Translations under genes and position numbers: made by a program
Part shown: piece by piece, positions 687 to 36,477 of the stretch
Position numbering within the stretch: position 1 is the first letter of the stretch
Layout: each line of letters opens with the position of its first letter
Source of the DNA: an uncultured Cellvibrionales bacterium
Lineage (GTDB): Bacteria; Pseudomonadota; Gammaproteobacteria; Pseudomonadales; GM7GCV1
DNA: 64,000 bases
Direction: 5' to 3'
Assembly: GCA_913063225.1 (NCBI GenBank)
Contig: CAJXYP010000006.1
Span: 5,607 to 69,606 of the forward strand
Notes under the pieces: model-generated
The model's input: only the letters and a program-made list of their open reading frames with translations
Databases searched by the model: none
Told to the model about the DNA's origin: nothing

Positions 687-2639
687 CTAGCTAGCCGCTT
701 CCGATTCTTCGGTTAAGAGTAGCCAGTTTTCTTCTAACGACTCCAGATCCTGTTTTGCTGTGGCTTGCCGATGAATAAGCTCCGTCAGTTCATCCTTTCG
801 CTCAGCGTCATAGAGTCCGGAATCCGCAAGCAGAGTTTCTACTTCTTTTAGAGTACGATTAGCTTCTTCAATTTTTTGTTCTACCCTTCGCAACCTATTA
901 CTGCTATTGGATTTTTCCTTGCGTTCGTCTGCAGACCGCTGACGGATTTGCTTCTTGCTTAATCCAGCATTTGCTTTGGATTTTTCGGCCCCAGTCTTAA
1001 CGCTAACCGCAGCGCTAATTTCAGCTTTGGCTGGCGCTGGCTTAGATTTCTTCGAACCCTTGGCGCCGGTATCTTTGGCACTTATCCAACGATGGTAGTC
1101 CTCGAGGGTTCCGTCGAATTCATTCAATTGACCTTCATGAGCCAGAATATATTCATCGACACTGTGTCGCAGTAAATGGCGATCATGGGATACGACTATT
1201 AACGCACCGGTGAATTCTTGAAGTGCCATAGTTAGGGCACTACGCATATCCAAATCCAGATGGTTGGTCGGCTCATCAAGCAAAAGCACGTTCGGTTTTT
1301 CCCAAACAATAAGCGCAAGAGCTAAACGTGCTTTTTCTCCCCCGGAAAAAGGAGCTATAGGCTCGACGGCCTTATCACCATGAAAATCAAATCCACCTAA
1401 GAAGTTACGGATTTGCTGCTCGGTAGCTTTGGGATTGATGCGCTGCAAATGCAGCAGCGCACTGGCTTCAACATCTAATGCCTCGAGCTGGTGCTGGGCA
1501 AAGTAACCAATCTTGCAGTGCTCACCTTGAGTAATTTCTCCACTCAAGGGTTTCAGATCACCGGTCAAACACTTGATAAGGGTAGATTTACCGGCGCCGT
1601 TTACACCCAATAGCCCTAGACGGTCACCGGGGTTTAGGCTAAAAGTAACATCGCTCAATACGCGATTATCCTCGTAGCCCAGTTCAATCCCCCTCAGAGA
1701 CATCAAAGGATTAGACACTTTGTTATTTTCCAAAAACCGAAAGTGGAATGGACTGTCCACTTGGGCACTGGCGATCATTTCCATATTGCCGAGTTGCTTA
1801 ACCCGGCTCTGAGCCTGTTTGGCCTTACTGGCCTTGGCTTTGAAGCGGGTAATAAAACTCTGAATATGTTTTATTTCGCGCTGCTGCTTTGCGTAATTGG
1901 ATTGCTGCAATGCAAGCCGTTCTGCTCGCTGTCGTTCAAAGGCGGAGTAGTTTCCCTTGTATAGATTCAGTTGTTTTTGTTCGATATGCACAATTTCATT
2001 GGCGACGTTATCGATAAAGTCCCGGTCATGCGAGATCAATATCAAGGTGCCTTGATAGCGCTTAAGACGCTGCTCTAGCCAATAGGTGGTATCCATATCC
2101 AAGTGGTTGGTGGGCTCATCAAGCAGCATGATGTCTGATGGCATCATCAGAGCTTGCGCAAGATTCAGTCGAATACGCCAACCACCGGAAAAGGAACTTA
2201 CCGGCTTGGAAATTTCGTCGTTAGTAAAACCCAACCCATGCAGTAGCTCTGCTGCTTGGTACTCGGCGGAATAACCACCGGCTGTGTCAAGCGCTTCGTA
2301 GAGATGACTCAGCGCGTGGTTGTCGTCAGCTGCTTCTGCTGCGCGAATTTCCGACTCCAACCTTCTTAAGACCTTATGCCCGTCCAGCACATAGTCTAAT
2401 GCGGTTCGATCAATGTGCCCAACTTCTTGAGCCATATGCGATATGCGGCTTCCTGGCGGAATACCAACGTCACCGGATTCTGAGGTTATCCTGCCCATCA
2501 GAAGCGCGAACAAACTCGATTTACCGCAGCCATTACGCCCAATAAGTGCCAGTCGACGGCGCTCAAGAATTACCAGAGAGGTGTCGACAAGAAGGTTTTC
2601 GCGGCCCCGTTGAAGGGTTATATTGGTTAAAGTAATCAC
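687..2639 (-). CDS. yheS: ABC-F family ATPase (YheS-like translation factor type)
   Basis: 650 aa with two ABC cassettes (GRNGCGKSS, GVNGAGKST; LSGGW/FSGGEK signatures) and a charged C-terminal coiled coil. Co-linear with E. coli YheS as I remember it. Confidence 0.85.
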   Translation of the reverse strand: MITLTNITLQRGRENLLVDTSLVILERRRLALIGRNGCGKSSLFALLMGRITSESGDVGIPPGSRISHMAQEVGHIDRTALDYVLDGHKVLRRLESEIRAAEAADDNHALSHLYEALDTAGGYSAEYQAAELLHGLGFTNDEISKPVSSFSGGWRIRLNLAQALMMPSDIMLLDEPTNHLDMDTTYWLEQRLKRYQGTLILISHDRDFIDNVANEIVHIEQKQLNLYKGNYSAFERQRAERLALQQSNYAKQQREIKHIQSFITRFKAKASKAKQAQSRVKQLGNMEMIASAQVDSPFHFRFLENNKVSNPLMSLRGIELGYEDNRVLSDVTFSLNPGDRLGLLGVNGAGKSTLIKCLTGDLKPLSGEITQGEHCKIGYFAQHQLEALDVEASALLHLQRINPKATEQQIRNFLGGFDFHGDKAVEPIAPFSGGEKARLALALIVWEKPNVLLLDEPTNHLDLDMRSALTMALQEFTGALIVVSHDRHLLRHSVDEYILAHEGQLNEFDGTLEDYHRWISAKDTGAKGSKKSKPAPAKAEISAAVSVKTGAEKSKANAGLSKKQIRQRSADERKEKSNSSNRLRRVEQKIEEANRTLKEVETLLADSGLYDAERKDELTELIHRQATAKQDLESLEENWLLLTEESEAAS

Positions 2640-2763
2640 GGCGGTTACGGCTAATTAGATTGGCTGGTTATTCAGGGGCGGCATAATACGTTGCTGAGCA
2701 TTAAAATGTTGGGGGAATTTAACAGATAGGCCTTATTAATCTGGCTGTCATATACTCAGTATC

Positions 2764-4184
2764 ATGATTTCACTTCGCAATAAGATCATCTTGTCTCTGA
2801 TTGGCACGAGCTTTCTAGCTATTGCCTTTACAGCGCTGATTGCCCGCATACTTATGGTGAGCGAGTTTGACCACTTGGTTGAGAATCGCGCTGCTGAAGA
2901 GTTTATGCAGGGAGCCCTGGAGTTTTATCAACTTTACGGCTCGTGGGAAACCGCCTTTGCGACGGAACCACTTTTTGAGTTTGCTCAAAGACGAAGACGA
3001 GAAAATCAACTATCCGAGCTTGATACTGCTGATGAAACCGCTCTCCGGTTAACTCCTGATGGCTATATCGCCCCGCAATCTCCGCCGACCTGGGTTGCAG
3101 AAGACTTTCCTGTAGGTGGACCTCCGCCTAACGCACCTCCTTGGGCCAGCCTTCCTGGGCAGCCTTCCTGGGCAGCCTTCCTGGGCAGCCTCCCGGTGGC
3201 CCACCTCCACCGCCCTATGTTTTGGTGGACCTGAACGGCATGGTTCTGGCGCCCTCACTGGAAACGCAATACGGTCAGATAATTCCGCAAGGTAAGTTAA
3301 AGCGAGCCCTACCCATTATGGACGGCAACCAAACCGTGGGATACCTGTTAACCGAGGTAACCATTGCCCTTACTTTAGTGGAAAGCCAGTTCCTCGCAGC
3401 CATCAAAAATTCCTGGTGGCTGGCCTTATTGCTGGTCGCGGTCTTTGCAGTGCCCCTAGGTATTTTGTTGGGCAATAGACTAGCATCACCCATCGAAAAG
3501 CTTAGTAGCGCGATACAAGCAATGAATCCCAGAGCTATTCAGCAAAAAGTGCCTATCATCTCCAAAGACGAATTGGGTCAGCCTTCTCAGCGCTTTAACC
3601 AGATGAGCGAAGAACTTTCATCGGCTTACGATGAACTCGAAAAATCGCGCATGCAGTTGACCGAATACGGTCAGCAAATGAAAGAAATAAGCCTGCAAGA
3701 CCCGCTGACTCTGCTGCCAAATCGCCGAGCCTTCAATGAGAAGGCTCCAGTTATCTTGGCTCAGAACGCTAGACATGGCCGAACCAGCATATTGGGCATA
3801 ATCGATCTTGGTAATTTCAAACGCATCAATGATGAATATTCTCACGCTATTGGTGATGACGTGCTGCGCCGATTAGGGCTGATTATGAAATCTAATCTAC
3901 GCGAAATGGACCTAATAGCCCGCTATGGTGGCGAAGAGTTTGTGGTTTTATTCCCGGAAACCGATTTACATACCAGTGTTGACTTAATTGAACGCCTGCG
4001 TAATCTAATTGCTGATACTGCATGGCAAGATATCGATCCGGATTTGCAGATAACCATGAGCACCGGCCTAGTTGAAGTCGCTCATGGAGAACCTTCGGAG
4101 GAGTCTCTCAAAACAGCCCTCGCCGCTGCGGACCAAAAGTTGTATCAAGCCAAAAATAGCGGACGCAACTGCACTAAAACCTAA
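2764..4184 (+). pseudogene. membrane sensor diguanylate cyclase (TM-periplasmic-TM-HAMP-GGDEF), frame broken by a 13-bp tandem repeat
   Basis: ORF 2764..3234 (TM plus periplasmic N-terminus) and ORF 3141..4184 (TM, HAMP, RYGGEEF active site) lie in different frames. Removing two of the three 13-bp repeat copies fuses them into one ORF reading ...PPWASLPGQPPGGPPPPPYVLVD... Confidence 0.8.
3147..3185. repeat. perfect tandem repeat (CAGCCTTCCTGGG) x3 plus a partial 4th copy to ~3191
   Basis: Copies at 3147-3159, 3160-3172 and 3173-3185 are identical. The unit length of 13 is not a multiple of 3. Confidence 0.95.
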
Positions 4185-4198
4185 TACGGCAGAAACAT

Positions 4199-5155
4199 AT
4201 GCTCTCTGAATTTGTTACCTTGCTGGGATTTTCCTTCGGCGTGACTGGCCCTATCTTTGCGTTGGTTTTTCTCGGTATTATGCTGAAAAAGCTTCGCGTA
4301 GTTGACGACACATTCACCCATAGCGCATCGAAACTGGTGTTTTTGGTGGCCATGCCAACCATGCTGTTTATGAGCATGATCACTACCGATATTCGTTCAC
4401 TTATTGATGCCAGCTATCTGCTCTACGCGCTGACCGGAACCCTAGTTCTGTTTGTACTTTTTTCCCTAGTGACACCATTGATAGTCAAAGAGCGCAGAGA
4501 TCGTGGCGTTTTTATTCAGGGAGCCTTTCGCGGCAATCTAGCCATTGTAGGGCTGGCATTCAGCTTTAATGCCTATGGTGCTCTCGGGCTGGCCAAAGCA
4601 TCTATTCTGATGTCAGTAATGACCATCCTCTACAACCTACTGTCGGTTTATACCCTGACTGCAAGCCTTAGCAATGATCGAGTTAAGATCTCGCAGTTGC
4701 TAATAAACATCGCCAAGAACCCACTAATCATTGCTTTGGTTATTGGTATCCCCTGTAGCTTACTAGCTATACCTTTCCCGACAGTGTTAACCACAGCCGG
4801 CGACTACGTAGCGCGCATGACACTCCCCCTAGCACTTATCTGTATCGGTGCCGCTATGTCTTTGGGAGAGCTGAAGAACTCCAGTTCGGTTTCAGGCATC
4901 GCGGTATTTGCCAAACTGATAGTTGTGCCGATCGCGATGATATATCCGGCCTACTTGTTCGGCTTCGAATCAACAGATCTGGGGGTTCTGTTTTTAATGG
5001 TTAGCGCGCCGACAGCTGCGGCGAGCTACATTATGGTTCAAGGTATGGGCGGCAATGGAAATCTGGCGGCCAATATTGTCGTGATCAGCACACTAGCTTC
5101 GGTAATCACTGTGAGTTTTGGTTTAGCGATCTTGAAGCAACTGGGAATTATTTAA
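4199..5155 (+). CDS. AEC (auxin efflux carrier) family transporter
   Basis: 318 aa with ~10 TM segments. The N- and C-terminal halves are typical of AEC/membrane transport family proteins. Confidence 0.7.
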   Translation: MLSEFVTLLGFSFGVTGPIFALVFLGIMLKKLRVVDDTFTHSASKLVFLVAMPTMLFMSMITTDIRSLIDASYLLYALTGTLVLFVLFSLVTPLIVKERRDRGVFIQGAFRGNLAIVGLAFSFNAYGALGLAKASILMSVMTILYNLLSVYTLTASLSNDRVKISQLLINIAKNPLIIALVIGIPCSLLAIPFPTVLTTAGDYVARMTLPLALICIGAAMSLGELKNSSSVSGIAVFAKLIVVPIAMIYPAYLFGFESTDLGVLFLMVSAPTAAASYIMVQGMGGNGNLAANIVVISTLASVITVSFGLAILKQLGII

Positions 5156-32951: not shown

Positions 32952-33846
32952 TTGGTGTTCCGAATTTTCCTTTTTCTGCTTACTAACCTCGCTGTATTAG
33001 TCGTTGCCGGAATTGTCCTAAGCCTTCTTGGCGTTAGCTCTTATCTCGAACAAGGTGGCACAGACCTAAATTTACAGGCACTGCTTATTTTTTGCGGAGT
33101 CTTTGGCTTTTCCAGCTCTTTGATCTCTCTCCTAATTTCAAAATGGATGGCCAAACGATCTACTAAAGCGAGGGTTATCACCGAACCCTCCACCCCCGAA
33201 GAACGATGGCTGTTGGAAACCGTTACTGAACTTGCTCAACAAGCCAGAATTGGAATGCTTGAAGTTGCCATATTTCCTGCCCAACAATCCAACGCCTTTG
33301 CTACCGGTTGGAATAAAAATAAGGCACTGGTAGCGGTGAGTGAAGGTTTAATGCAGCGCTTCAAAAAAATGAAGTGCGGGCAGTGCTAGCGCATGAAATT
33401 GGCCATGTCGCCAACGGCGACATGATTACCCTCGCACTCTTACAGGGCGTGGTGAATACCTTTGTAATGTTTTTGCCCGGATAATTGGACACACAGTAGA
33501 TCGGGTTATATTCAAGACTGAGCGCGGTCACGGTATCGGCTTTTGGATTACCACAATAATTGCAGAAATTGTTCTGGGTATTCTGGCGTCCATGATAGTT
33601 TTTTGGTTTTCTCGCCGCAGGGAGTTTCGGGCAGATGTCGCAGGTGCTAATTTGGCTGGCAGAGAGTCAATGATAAGCGCTCTTCAGAGACTACAATCGG
33701 AGGTGCGGGCGCAGGTACCGAATCAAATGCCTGATACCCTCACGGCCTTTGCTATATCGCCGGGCTTTGGTAAAAAGGTTGGTAGAGCTTTTATGACGCA
33801 TCCACCTCTGGAAGAGCGCATTCAAGCGCTTCGATCCAGCTTTTAA
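32952..33846 (+). pseudogene. htpX: zinc metalloprotease HtpX, interrupted by two single-base frameshifts
   Basis: Three co-linear pieces match E. coli HtpX. Frame 0 runs to 33389, frame 2 covers 33371-33480 and carries HEIGH (33392-33406), and frame 1 runs from ~33475 to 33846. The junctions lie at an A7 run (33363-33369) and a T5 run (33470-33474). Confidence 0.9.
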
Positions 33847-35330: not shown

Positions 35331-36477
35331 TTAACTAATACCTTGTTTTTTCATCGCGCGCCAAAGTGTCATGCGACTAACGCCTAAACTCAAAGCAGTA
35401 CGGACACGACTTCCTTCATGCGAAGCCAAAGCCGCTAGTAGCTCTTCTTGGGACATTTCGGAAACGCCCTTATTGGAGTCATTTTTACGCCTAGATGGTC
35501 GCTGATCGCGAGCTCGACGAGAGAAATCAGAAGCGCGACGCCCATGACCAACTCCCTGATCCCCTGCCCGCTTTGAATTTTCGTCAGATTTGTCCGCATA
35601 ACGCCCAACGTCGGCGGGCAAGTCGGAAATTTCAATTTTTATACCATCACTCATAGCCATGGCATACAGAGCGGAATTCTGAAGTTGACGAATATTCCCT
35701 GGCCAATCGCACTTGGTTAATGCCTCAATAGCCTCAGCGGATATCACTACCTGATAAGGGCTCTTGATTGCCCTATTGCCGTCCATTGCTGCGGCTCCTT
35801 TTGTAATGCCCACTGCAGCACTCTTTGTGTCGCTAAGAAACTTTCGAAATAGAGGTAATATATCGCTGGACCGCTCTCGTAACGGCGGCAAATGGATATT
35901 GATTACTTCTAACCGGTAGCGAAGATCTGCTCTAAAAGTTCCATCTCGCACAGCTTGCTCTAGGGGAAGTTGAGATGCAGATAGAACCTGTTCCCGAAAG
36001 GGTATTGGATGAACGGAACCAATTTCGGAATACTCTCGTTCCTGCAAGACTCTCAGCAACTTGGCTTGCAAGCTAATATCCATGGTCGTTACTTCGTCCA
36101 TAAATAGTGTTCCATCATCAACCGCACCTAGCAATCCAGCCTGATCAGAAATGGCGCCTGTAAAGGAACCCTTTCGATGCCCAAATAATTGAGAGTCCAT
36201 CAAAGAATCGGAAAAATTTGCACAGTTATAGGAAAGAAAAGGCGAGGTTTTTCGTCCACTTTCTTCATGTAAAGCCCGAGCTGTTAACTCCTTACCAGTG
36301 CCAGTCTCTCCCCAAATATAGACCGGTACGTTTGCGGTTGCCGCTTTTTTTCAACCACTCGAGGATCTCCAACATAAGTGGCGAACAGGTATGCATCCCC
36401 CTAAAACTGACTAGGGCATCAGCGCTCCGAATTTCAGGAATTTTATTTTGTGGCATATCGGTAATACATTTAGTCAC
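35331..36477 (-). pseudogene. sigma-54-dependent transcriptional activator (PspF-like, no receiver/sensor domain), frameshifted
   Basis: ORF 35331..36203 carries the GAFTGA-type loop (GSFTGA), Walker B (LFMDEV) and a C-terminal HTH. The Walker A box (GETGTGKE) is only readable by shifting frame in the A7 run (T7 on the plus strand, 36345-36351), which joins it to ORF 36292..36477. Confidence 0.85.

What the first reader, a model, noticed from the sequence alone, without database searches (positions are those of the whole stretch)
3147..3185. 13-bp x3 tandem repeat switches a sensor diguanylate cyclase out of frame (phase-variation-like)
CAGCCTTCCTGGG occurs three times in perfect tandem, with a partial fourth copy, inside the periplasmic Pro-rich linker of a TM-HAMP-GGDEF gene. 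With three copies the N-terminal part (2764-3234) and the catalytic part (3141-4184) lie in different frames. With one copy, or with four, the frames join. One copy gives ...PPWASLPGQPPGGPPPPPYVLVDLNGMV.... Four copies insert 13 aa. A repeat unit that is not a multiple of three, inside a signalling gene, is the classic substrate for slipped-strand ON/OFF switching. It cannot be explained as a homopolymer base-calling error. In the present state the cell would make at most a truncated sensor fragment. It might also make an N-terminally truncated cyclase from an internal start.
Basis: seen in the sequence. Interest (0 to 1): 0.62.

Follow-up and report, generated by a model that had tools for sequence, protein, structure and literature searches.

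The report
Diguanylate cyclase broken by 13-bp duplication
A membrane sensor gene that makes the signal c-di-GMP was recently knocked out of frame by two successive 13-base tandem duplications; every public copy carries the same broken form and other genes in this genome are broken the same way, so it looks like an ordinary young pseudogene and not an on/off switch.

Summary
CAGCCTTCCTGGG stands three times in perfect tandem at 3147-3185. It separates the N-terminal part (2764-3234) of a TM-sensor-TM-HAMP-GGDEF gene from its catalytic part (3141-4184). One or four copies restore a single frame of 464 or 477 aa.

Syntenic orthologues in two congeners and a sister species are single intact genes of 448-485 aa and lack the repeat. 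The lesion is therefore lineage-specific and needs at least two slippage steps (1 to 2 to 3).

There is no sign of switching. Only the three-copy product exists among about 15 billion public proteins, on 4 contigs. Products of the 0, 1, 2, 4, 5 and 6-copy alleles are absent.

The same genome has a kefB-like antiporter and a TPR/beta-barrel gene broken at perfect short tandem duplications. The window also holds broken htpX and pspF-like genes. The HAMP domain scores 11 or more bits below all eight homologues.

Best reading: a young, apparently fixed pseudogene (about 0.75). It could revert in principle, but nothing marks it as an evolved contingency locus (about 0.1).

The scan reached the same verdict twice before on other DNA (E. 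coli dgcE; a Falkowbacteria GGDEF gene).

The parts
2764..3234 (+). N-terminal fragment ORF (156 aa). It holds TM1 (2785-2859) and the first part of the periplasmic sensor. After the repeat it reads out of frame and ends at TGA 3232-3234.
   Evidence: orthologous to residues 1 to about 126 of the intact G003 and G002 genes
3142..3191 (+). Whole tandem array as TRF sees it (3.8 copies). Partial copies TGGGC (3142-3146) and CAGCCT (3186-3191) flank the perfect copies. They supply the microhomology that would seed slippage.
3147..3185 (+). Three perfect copies of CAGCCTTCCTGGG. This is the frameshifting lesion (+26 nt relative to a one-copy state).
3141..4184 (+). C-terminal open frame. It holds the rest of the periplasmic sensor, TM2 (3414-3473), HAMP (3465-3620), a signalling helix and GGDEF (3693-4169). 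GGEEF is intact at 3927-3941 and an RxxD site (REMD) lies at 3900-3911.
3240..4184 (+). The ORF that public gene callers annotate (314 aa, P0001). Its ATG lies 5 nt after the TGA of the N-terminal fragment.
3582..3584 (+). CCT (Pro) where all ten homologues have Leu in the HAMP motif DELGxL. It goes with a HAMP score of 27.6 bits against 38.9-51.1 bits in the eight homologues scanned.
3810..3812 (+). GGT (Gly) in place of the second Asp of the DxDxFK motif of the GGDEF domain. That Asp is invariant in the ten homologues and present in the three best-matching solved cyclases.
687..2639 (-). Divergent ABC-F ATPase gene, a conserved left neighbour that fixes orthology by synteny.
4199..5155 (+). 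Mem_trans (AEC-type) transporter gene, a conserved right neighbour.

Best explanation
The gene at 2764-4184 encoded a membrane-bound sensor diguanylate cyclase: TM1, periplasmic sensor with a Pro/Gly-rich loop, TM2, HAMP, GGDEF. In this lineage, replication slippage duplicated a 13-bp unit twice (1 to 2 to 3 copies). The slippage was seeded by a short imperfect direct repeat already present in the Pro/Gly codons. Each step adds 13 nt, so both the two-copy and the three-copy states are out of frame. The cell can make at most a 156-aa N-terminal stub and possibly an N-terminally truncated 314-aa product. The second expansion went away from the in-frame state, which implies that the gene was not being selected for function. 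It is a young pseudogene, apparently fixed in the only known population of this organism. It is one of several genes in this genome broken by small indels, including other perfect short tandem duplications. Losing two units or gaining one would restore the frame, so reversion at mutational frequency is physically possible, but nothing indicates an evolved switch.

Shown: the repeat, the frames, intact syntenic orthologues without the repeat, a single allele in public data, and parallel lesions elsewhere in the genome.

Inferred: the order of events, slippage as the mechanism, fixation, and loss of function.
For: (1) Syntenic orthologues are single ORFs without the repeat: G003 457 aa and G002 448 aa, and sister species P0002 485 aa at 65% identity, identical on the three contigs read, of the 8 that carry it.

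(2) Only 1 or 4 copies are in frame. Three copies therefore need at least 2 events from the one-copy state.

(3) Only the three-copy allele is known. The 156-aa product and P0001 are each on 4 contigs from NCBI, JGI, ENA and GEM. Products of 0, 1, 2, 4, 5 and 6 copies are absent from about 15 billion proteins. No full-length relative above 65% identity exists. An ENA assembly with a 1.98-Mb contig is identical over 4945 bp, including the three copies.

(4) The same lesion type occurs elsewhere in the genome. A kefB-like CPA2 antiporter is split exactly at a 13-bp x2.6 perfect duplication: the Pfam Na_H_Exchanger profile is matched at positions 4-104 on one side and 102-374 on the other, while G003 has one 643-aa frame. 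A TPR plus beta-barrel gene carries three frameshifts, two of them at 7-bp and 11-bp duplications, while G002 and G003 have single frames of 509 and 492 aa.

(5) Perfect tandem duplications with a unit that is not a multiple of three are depleted in ORFs (10 of 29) compared with those whose unit is a multiple of three (47 of 58). That is the pattern expected if selection removes them except in dispensable genes.

(6) The window also has htpX and a pspF-like gene in pieces, unchanged in the ENA assembly.

(7) The HAMP score is the lowest of nine by at least 11 bits, and the GGDEF score is also the lowest. There are four unique, radical changes at otherwise invariant columns: L to P, D to G, R to C and E to K.

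(8) The gene is dispensable in the group. No orthologue was found in congener G001 (99% complete) or in the other seven family genomes searched.
Against: No reads could be examined, so minority alleles cannot be excluded. The public assemblies are the same strain, with 0 differences in 11.9 kb, and may share a sample, so they are not independent populations. Apart from the repeat, both halves are fully open, GGEEF and RxxD are intact, and relative-rate tests against the sister species show no consistent acceleration. The gene was therefore constrained until very recently, which also fits a switch caught in the OFF state. The insertion site is a loop that tolerates length change. Two successive changes at one tract show that it is slippage-prone.
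Confidence: 0.75

Rival explanations
1. True phase-variable (contingency) locus. The 13-bp tract gains and loses units at a useful rate, toggling the sensor cyclase between ON (1 or 4 copies) and OFF (2 or 3 copies). The assemblies merely caught the OFF majority.
For: The unit is not a multiple of three and the copies are perfect. The tract has changed at least twice. It sits in a length-tolerant loop. The rest of the gene is open with its catalytic motifs intact. Reversible switching by tandem duplication and precise loss is documented for pneumococcal cap3A (Waite et al. 2001, as summarised in PMC11163986).
Against: Only one allele is in public data. The repeat is absent from all orthologues. 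Three units is short for a contingency tract (own knowledge). The last step moved away from the in-frame state. There are radical substitutions in the HAMP and DxD motifs. The same lesion occurs in a housekeeping-type antiporter and in a multiply broken barrel gene, which are plain pseudogenes.
Confidence: 0.12
2. The split gene is still used. The 314-aa C-terminal product (TM2-HAMP-GGDEF, ATG at 3240) is translated, perhaps by reinitiation after the TGA at 3232-3234, and acts as a sensor-less cyclase.
For: The ATG lies 5 nt after the stop of the upstream fragment, and gene callers annotate this ORF. GGEEF and RxxD are intact.
Against: The stop-start spacing is a by-product of the frameshift, and the Met is an ordinary internal residue not conserved in orthologues. 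Only a weak, distant GGTGGA precedes it. The product would lack TM1 and would have to export a stretch of about 58 aa without a signal. The HAMP score is degraded. No expression data could be obtained.
Confidence: 0.06
3. Assembly artefact: the true copy number is 4 or 1, and the assemblers miscounted a short repeat.
For: Tandem repeats can be miscounted by de Bruijn assemblers at small k (own knowledge). The assemblies may derive from the same reads.
Against: The array is only about 50 bp, shorter than a read and than the final k of common assemblers (own knowledge). Assemblies of different contiguity carry it: a 118-kb contig in G000, a 1.98-Mb contig in ENA, and another contig of 2.33 Mb. 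The first two are identical and all carriers encode the three-copy-specific product. A one-copy state has no repeated k-mers from which an assembler could invent copies. Two-copy lesions elsewhere, such as the kefB-like one, cannot arise by collapse.
Confidence: 0.04
4. Programmed -1 ribosomal frameshifting within 3141-3234 fuses the two frames.
For: The two frames overlap by 94 nt, and the needed shift is -1.
Against: Reading the N-terminal frame codon by codon shows no X XXY YYZ slippery heptamer in the overlap. Orthologues need no frameshift. The fused protein would carry a junk segment.
Confidence: 0.01

Closest known systems
lacI (CTGG)3 spontaneous frameshift hotspot of E. coli (Farabaugh et al. 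1978; own knowledge, also named in earlier scan notes e1-065418 and e1-1132926)
   Same: A short unit that is not a multiple of three, present in three tandem copies inside a coding region, gains or loses a unit by slipped-strand mispairing and inactivates the gene. It is a mutational hotspot, not a regulatory device.
   Different: The unit here is 13 bp, not 4 bp. The present state is two steps from the in-frame ancestor. The gene is a membrane sensor cyclase in an uncultured marine gammaproteobacterium.
Tandem-duplication phase variation of pneumococcal capsule gene cap3A (Waite et al. 2001, as summarised in PMC11163986)
   Same: Perfect tandem duplications of more than ten bases inside an ORF switch the gene off, and precise loss of the duplication switches it on again.
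   Different: In cap3A, switching was shown by experiment and populations are mixed. Here only one allele is known, the tract has expanded further from the in-frame state, and no phenotype or heterogeneity is available.
Simple-sequence-repeat contingency loci, such as the gonococcal opa CTCTT repeats (Murphy et al. 1989) and the Bordetella bvgS C-run (Stibitz et al. 1989); both appear in the reference list of PMC8115180
   Same: An intragenic repeat whose unit is not a multiple of three puts the gene in or out of frame. bvgS shows that a signalling gene can be the target.
   Different: Contingency tracts are usually long, with many units, conserved as repeats among strains, and polymorphic (own knowledge). 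This tract has 3 units, is absent from all orthologues and is monomorphic in public data.
E. coli dgcE broken by a 7-bp x3 repeat, and a Falkowbacteria GGDEF gene broken by a 7-bp x3 repeat
   Same: GGDEF genes frameshifted by short tandem duplication and judged to be inherited pseudogenes rather than switches.
   Different: Different organisms, unit lengths and domain architectures. Here the same genome shows further genes broken in the same way.

Membership tests
GGDEF diguanylate cyclase with TM-sensor-TM-HAMP input | GGDEF domain above the Pfam threshold with a GG(D/E)EF active-site motif | tested here: met
   PF00990 scores 125.3 bits against a cut-off of 23.8. GGEEF lies at 3927-3941 and RxxD at 3900-3911. 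The domain aligns to solved cyclases at E about 1e-28.
GGDEF diguanylate cyclase with TM-sensor-TM-HAMP input | One continuous reading frame encoding sensor, HAMP and GGDEF | tested here: not met
   The gene is split into 2764-3234 and 3141-4184 in different frames. Orthologues are continuous.
GGDEF diguanylate cyclase with TM-sensor-TM-HAMP input | Conserved HAMP and metal/substrate-site residues | tested here: inconclusive
   HAMP scores 27.6 bits against 38.9-51.1 in the eight homologues scanned, with L to P in DELGxL (invariant in all ten aligned). The second Asp of DxDxFK is Gly. The effect on activity is untested.
Phase-variable contingency locus (slipped-strand SSR switch) | Intragenic or promoter repeat whose unit is not a multiple of three, so that copy number sets the frame | tested here: met
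   13-bp unit; 1 or 4 copies are in frame and 0, 2, 3, 5 or 6 are out of frame.
Phase-variable contingency locus (slipped-strand SSR switch) | Copy-number polymorphism within a population or among strains | tested here: not met
   Only the three-copy product is in the collection, on 4 contigs. All other allele products are absent. No match in metagenome or genome contigs. Caveat: the assemblies are the same strain, and reads were not testable.
Phase-variable contingency locus (slipped-strand SSR switch) | Repeat tract conserved at the same site in related strains or species | tested here: not met
   No repeat in sister species P0002, in the G002 and G003 orthologues or in P0003-P0009.
Phase-variable contingency locus (slipped-strand SSR switch) | Measured high, reversible switching rate | not testable with these tools
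Young pseudogene by short tandem duplication | Perfect direct duplication absent from orthologues, disrupting a frame that orthologues keep open | tested here: met
Young pseudogene by short tandem duplication | Signs of relaxed constraint or dispensability | tested here: inconclusive
   For: radical changes in motifs and the lowest domain scores; the orthologue is missing in G001 and most of the family; the tract expanded away from the in-frame state. Against: no consistent rate acceleration against the sister species, and no further stops.

The most novel reading that the evidence does not exclude
The 13-bp tract is a working low-copy, long-unit slippage switch for a c-di-GMP sensor in a free-living marine gammaproteobacterium. 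It may be one of a set of tandem-repeat loci in this genome (the kefB-like gene, outer-membrane barrel genes, and the 8-bp x9.5 and 10-bp x6.6 arrays next to gene starts) that together diversify the envelope and lifestyle within a population.
Probability: 0.08. Interest if true: 0.55.

Novelty: new member of a known kind. Interest (0 to 1): 0.15.

Why it matters
There is little beyond correct annotation. The locus should be labelled a frameshifted (pseudo)gene of a sensor diguanylate cyclase, not two genes (a 156-aa hypothetical protein and a 314-aa GGDEF protein) as public gene calls have it.

It adds one data point to a pattern: GGDEF genes are often lost through short tandem duplications, and this small marine genome is shedding genes. 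An earlier scan note reports a deletion of the type IV pilus genes. Broken htpX, pspF-like, kefB-like and barrel genes were seen here.

If deep sequencing did show mixed copy numbers, it would be a rare case of phase variation of c-di-GMP signalling outside pathogens. The present evidence makes that unlikely.

Tried and rejected

(2) Other strains: exact flank patterns found nothing in genome contigs or in metagenome contigs (both scans used). The tool warns that records very near the window's genome may be left out.

Two loci of it obtained through the look-up of encoding contigs were identical to the window. The assemblies are therefore the same strain and do not count as independent populations.

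(4) Repair-defect hypothesis for the tandem-duplication lesions: mutS, recJ and sbcB are present. xseA was not found in G000 although it is present in all 10 family relatives. However, the syntenic region runs off the end of contig C10, and the neighbouring guaB and guaA are missing too. This is an assembly gap, not a loss, so the hypothesis was rejected.

(5) Long-term relaxed selection: Tajima-type relative-rate counts against the sister species with six outgroups gave no consistent excess. Only one outgroup was significant. Only recent inactivation is therefore claimed.

(6) Exact look-up of my guessed kefB-like fragment products found nothing, probably because the gene caller chose another start. 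This is uninformative.

(7) The promoter/terminator scan of 2550-4300 gave counts no higher than shuffles.

(8) The search for the ABC-F neighbour in G001 and G007 at E of 1e-100 or lower returned nothing. The threshold was probably too strict, and this was not pursued.

Full report
OBSERVATION

The window reads CAGCCTTCCTGGG three times without a mismatch at 3147-3185. Tandem Repeats Finder reports a single array at 3142-3191 with period 13, 3.8 copies, 97% matches and score 91. This is the best-scoring array in the window. The partial copies are TGGGC before the first unit and CAGCCT after the third. The next 13 bases, CAGCCTCCCGGTG, match the unit at 10 of 13 positions. The 13-mer with at most one mismatch is expected 0.11 times in the window, and no shuffle gave four matches.

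The ORF 2764-3234 (156 aa) has no Pfam hit. The frame 3141-4184 (347 aa) has HAMP and GGDEF. Rebuilding the gene with 0 to 6 copies shows that only 1 copy (464 aa) and 4 copies (477 aa) give one open frame.

WHAT THE GENE IS

The window is G000:C6:5607-69606 of a 2.26-Mb, 32-contig genome that is 96.8% complete. Earlier notes of this scan describe it as an uncultured marine gammaproteobacterium.

Two congeners carry a single gene at the same place, between a divergent ABC-F ATPase gene and a Mem_trans transporter gene. These are G003 (457 aa) and G002 (448 aa), about 50% identical. A sister species has a 485-aa gene that is 65% identical in the same neighbourhood (ABC-F, cyclase, Mem_trans, RecQ). 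Eight contigs from JGI, NCBI and ENA carry it, and the three read are identical in sequence.

The alignment shows the architecture: TM1, a helical periplasmic segment, a Pro/Gly-rich loop, a beta-rich periplasmic segment, TM2, HAMP, a signalling helix and GGDEF. The loop ranges from almost nothing (P0007) to about 70 residues (P0004). The repeat lies inside that loop. None of the orthologues has the repeat. The sister species reads ...GGPPPGAPQFGGPPPEGFSPDGGPDGGTPGGQPPPPFVLVD... with unrelated DNA. The one-copy reconstruction (...GGPPPNAPPWASLPGQPPGGPPPPPYVLVD...) has the composition of the homologous loops. The four-copy version adds QPSWAAFLGSLPG, which is more hydrophobic than any homologue's loop, though the site clearly tolerates length change.

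HOW THE LESION AROSE (inference)

In the one-copy state the sequence already holds CAGCCT twice, 13 nt apart, and TGGGC/TGGG twice. Slipped-strand mispairing on that microhomology gives two copies, and a second slip gives three. Three copies cannot be reached from one copy in a single simple slip. The present allele is therefore at least two events from the in-frame ancestor, or one event from a four-copy state that itself needs two events through an out-of-frame intermediate. The step from two to three copies went away from the frame-restoring direction. That is what one expects if function was no longer selected.

IS IT SWITCHING?

The proxies all point one way.
- The 156-aa product, whose sequence is specific to three copies, and the 314-aa downstream product are each on 4 contigs from NCBI, JGI/IMG, ENA and GEM. 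The longest contig is 2.33 Mb.
- The predicted products of the 0, 1, 2, 4, 5 and 6-copy alleles are not among about 15 billion public proteins.
- A homology search found no full-length protein between 65% and 100% identity.
- Exact flank searches of genome and metagenome contigs found nothing further.

There is a caveat. An ENA assembly (ERZ534234, a 1.98-Mb contig) is identical to the window over 4945 bp around this gene and over 6912 bp thirty kilobases away. The public assemblies are therefore one strain and possibly one sample. They show that the sequence is reproducible, not that independent populations agree.

CONTEXT IN THE GENOME

A scan of the whole genome for perfect tandem duplications with a unit that is not a multiple of three found 29. 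In several of them two frames of one gene abut at the repeat.
- A kefB-like CPA2 antiporter (G000:C26) is split at AGCCTTGGACCGT x2.6. The Pfam Na_H_Exchanger profile is matched at positions 4-104 on one side and 102-374 plus TrkA_N on the other. G003 has a single 643-aa frame at 83% identity.
- A TPR plus outer-membrane barrel gene (G000:C7:100382-101884) lies in four frame pieces. The lesions are a 7-bp x3.4 repeat, an 11-bp x2.1 repeat and a third site next to a T-run. G002 and G003 have single frames of 509 and 492 aa.
- Two more candidates (C20:38834 and C13:37475-37542) were not resolved.

Across the genome, perfect duplications whose unit is a multiple of three lie mostly in long ORFs (47 of 58). 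Those whose unit is not a multiple of three mostly do not (10 of 29). This is the ordinary signature of selection removing frameshifting duplications except where the gene is dispensable.

Inside this same window, htpX and a pspF-like activator are also in pieces, as earlier notes said. Those lesions are unchanged in the ENA assembly. The cyclase has no orthologue in congener G001 (99% complete) or in the other seven family genomes searched. The genome keeps other GGDEF genes, with 9 domain-level matches. The cyclase is therefore an accessory gene in a lineage that is losing genes.

STATE OF THE REST OF THE GENE

Both halves are open and GGEEF and RxxD are intact. Relative-rate counts against the sister species show no consistent acceleration. 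Inactivation is therefore recent.

Even so, the HAMP domain scores 27.6 bits against 38.9-51.1 in eight homologues, and GGDEF is the lowest of nine. At columns invariant in all ten homologues the window has four unique, radical changes:
- Leu to Pro in DELGxL.
- Asp to Gly at the second Asp of DxDxFK, which is also Asp in the three best-matching solved cyclases.
- Arg to Cys in the C-terminal GRNRTE motif.
- Glu to Lys in the same motif.

The count of unique changes is not exceptional, since other sequences have 0-11. Their nature is suggestive but does not prove decay.

ALTERNATIVES

A repair defect as the cause of the tandem duplications was tested and rejected. mutS, recJ and sbcB are present. 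The apparent lack of xseA is an assembly gap, because contig C10 ends in the syntenic region and guaB and guaA are missing too.

An assembly artefact is unlikely. The array is about 50 bp, assemblies of different contiguity agree, and a one-copy locus offers no repeated k-mers from which copies could be invented.

Programmed frameshifting lacks a slippery site in the 94-nt overlap.

A truncated cyclase from the ATG at 3240, five bases after the upstream stop, cannot be excluded. However, the spacing is a by-product of the shift, the Met is not conserved, and the product would lack TM1.

COMPARISON WITH WHAT IS KNOWN

The mechanism is that of the lacI (CTGG)3 hotspot (own knowledge). The nearest true switch of this kind is pneumococcal cap3A, where tandem duplications turn the gene off and their precise loss turns it on (Waite 2001, as summarised in PMC11163986). 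Classical contingency loci and the bvgS frameshift are cited in PMC8115180.

The defining features of a contingency locus were tested where possible. The frame-setting repeat is met. Polymorphism is not met, with the caveat above. Conservation of the tract in relatives is not met. The switching rate is not testable. A full-text search for diguanylate cyclase together with phase variation and slipped-strand gave four papers (three listed). From its title and abstract or the passages read, none appears to describe such a locus.

This scan reached the same verdict on two earlier GGDEF genes broken by 7-bp triplicated repeats.

VERDICT

This is a real feature, correctly seen, but most likely an ordinary young pseudogene made by two rounds of 13-bp slippage (confidence 0.75). 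A working switch remains possible at roughly one in ten, and deep sequencing across the tract would settle it. Interest is low.

Noticed in passing
G000:C26:11904-11937 (other contig of the window's genome): A kefB-like CPA2 K+/H+ antiporter is frameshifted by a perfect 13-bp tandem duplication (AGCCTTGGACCGT x2.6). One copy restores a 628-aa protein. G003 has an intact 643-aa frame, and an intact paralogue sits at G000:C1:113561.
   Followed up: yes
G000:C7:100382-101884: A TPR plus outer-membrane beta-barrel gene (weak SlipAM / Phenol_MetA_deg hits) is broken into four frame pieces. The lesions are at CCTGAGC x3.4 (101648-101671), TACGCCGACTC x2.1 (100920-100942) and a third site near a T-run at about 101500. 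It is intact in G002 and G003.
   Followed up: yes
G000:C20:2747-2822: (ATTGAACC) x9.5, perfect, lies between an upstream 271-aa ORF (not identified) and the probable TTG start of a 165-aa ORF. Every frame of the array contains TGA, so it is non-coding and sits directly upstream of the start. It is a better candidate for copy-number-dependent expression than the cyclase repeat.
   Followed up: partly
G000:C20:11122-11187; G000:C2:132946-132973; G000:C11:12308-12335: The same 10-mer array (TGAGAATACA / CATGAGAATA, 6.6, 2.8 and 2.8 copies), followed by a shared tail CATGAGAAGCTATACCGA, occurs at three loci. At C2 it bounds an insert of about 1.2 kb that splits a comM/yifB-like Mg-chelatase ATPase gene and carries two acetyltransferase-like genes (named from reading the sequence). 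At C20 it lies in the spacer between a sulfatase-like gene and a prfC-like gene (both named by eye). It looks like the end of a small mobile element.
   Followed up: partly
G000:C19:2683-2751: (GGCAAA) x11.5, perfect, lies inside what looks like a universal-stress-protein (Usp) gene, named by eye. The N-terminal part reads the array as KG repeats and the C-terminal part reads it as AK repeats, so the gene changes frame at or near a hexamer array that by itself cannot shift the frame.
   Followed up: no
G000:C20:38834-38853 and G000:C13:37475-37542: Two further places where same-strand frames abut at perfect short repeats: TATCAGA x2.9, and CTATTCGA x3.5 next to AGCC x5 in a signal-peptide-bearing protein. 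None of the fragments has a Pfam hit. It was not resolved whether these are single broken genes.
   Followed up: partly
window 32952-33846 and 35331-36477: htpX (145-aa and 84-aa pieces) and a pspF-like sigma-54 activator (290-aa and 61-aa pieces) are split, as earlier notes said, at homopolymer runs. The sequence is identical in the independent ENA assembly, so these look like real lesions and raise the pseudogene count of this window to at least three.
   Followed up: partly
end of G000:C10 (about 94350): The assembly breaks just before the xseA-guaB-guaA region that relatives have. guaB, guaA and xseA are therefore missing from G000 through an assembly gap, a caution for any absence call in this genome.
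   Followed up: yes
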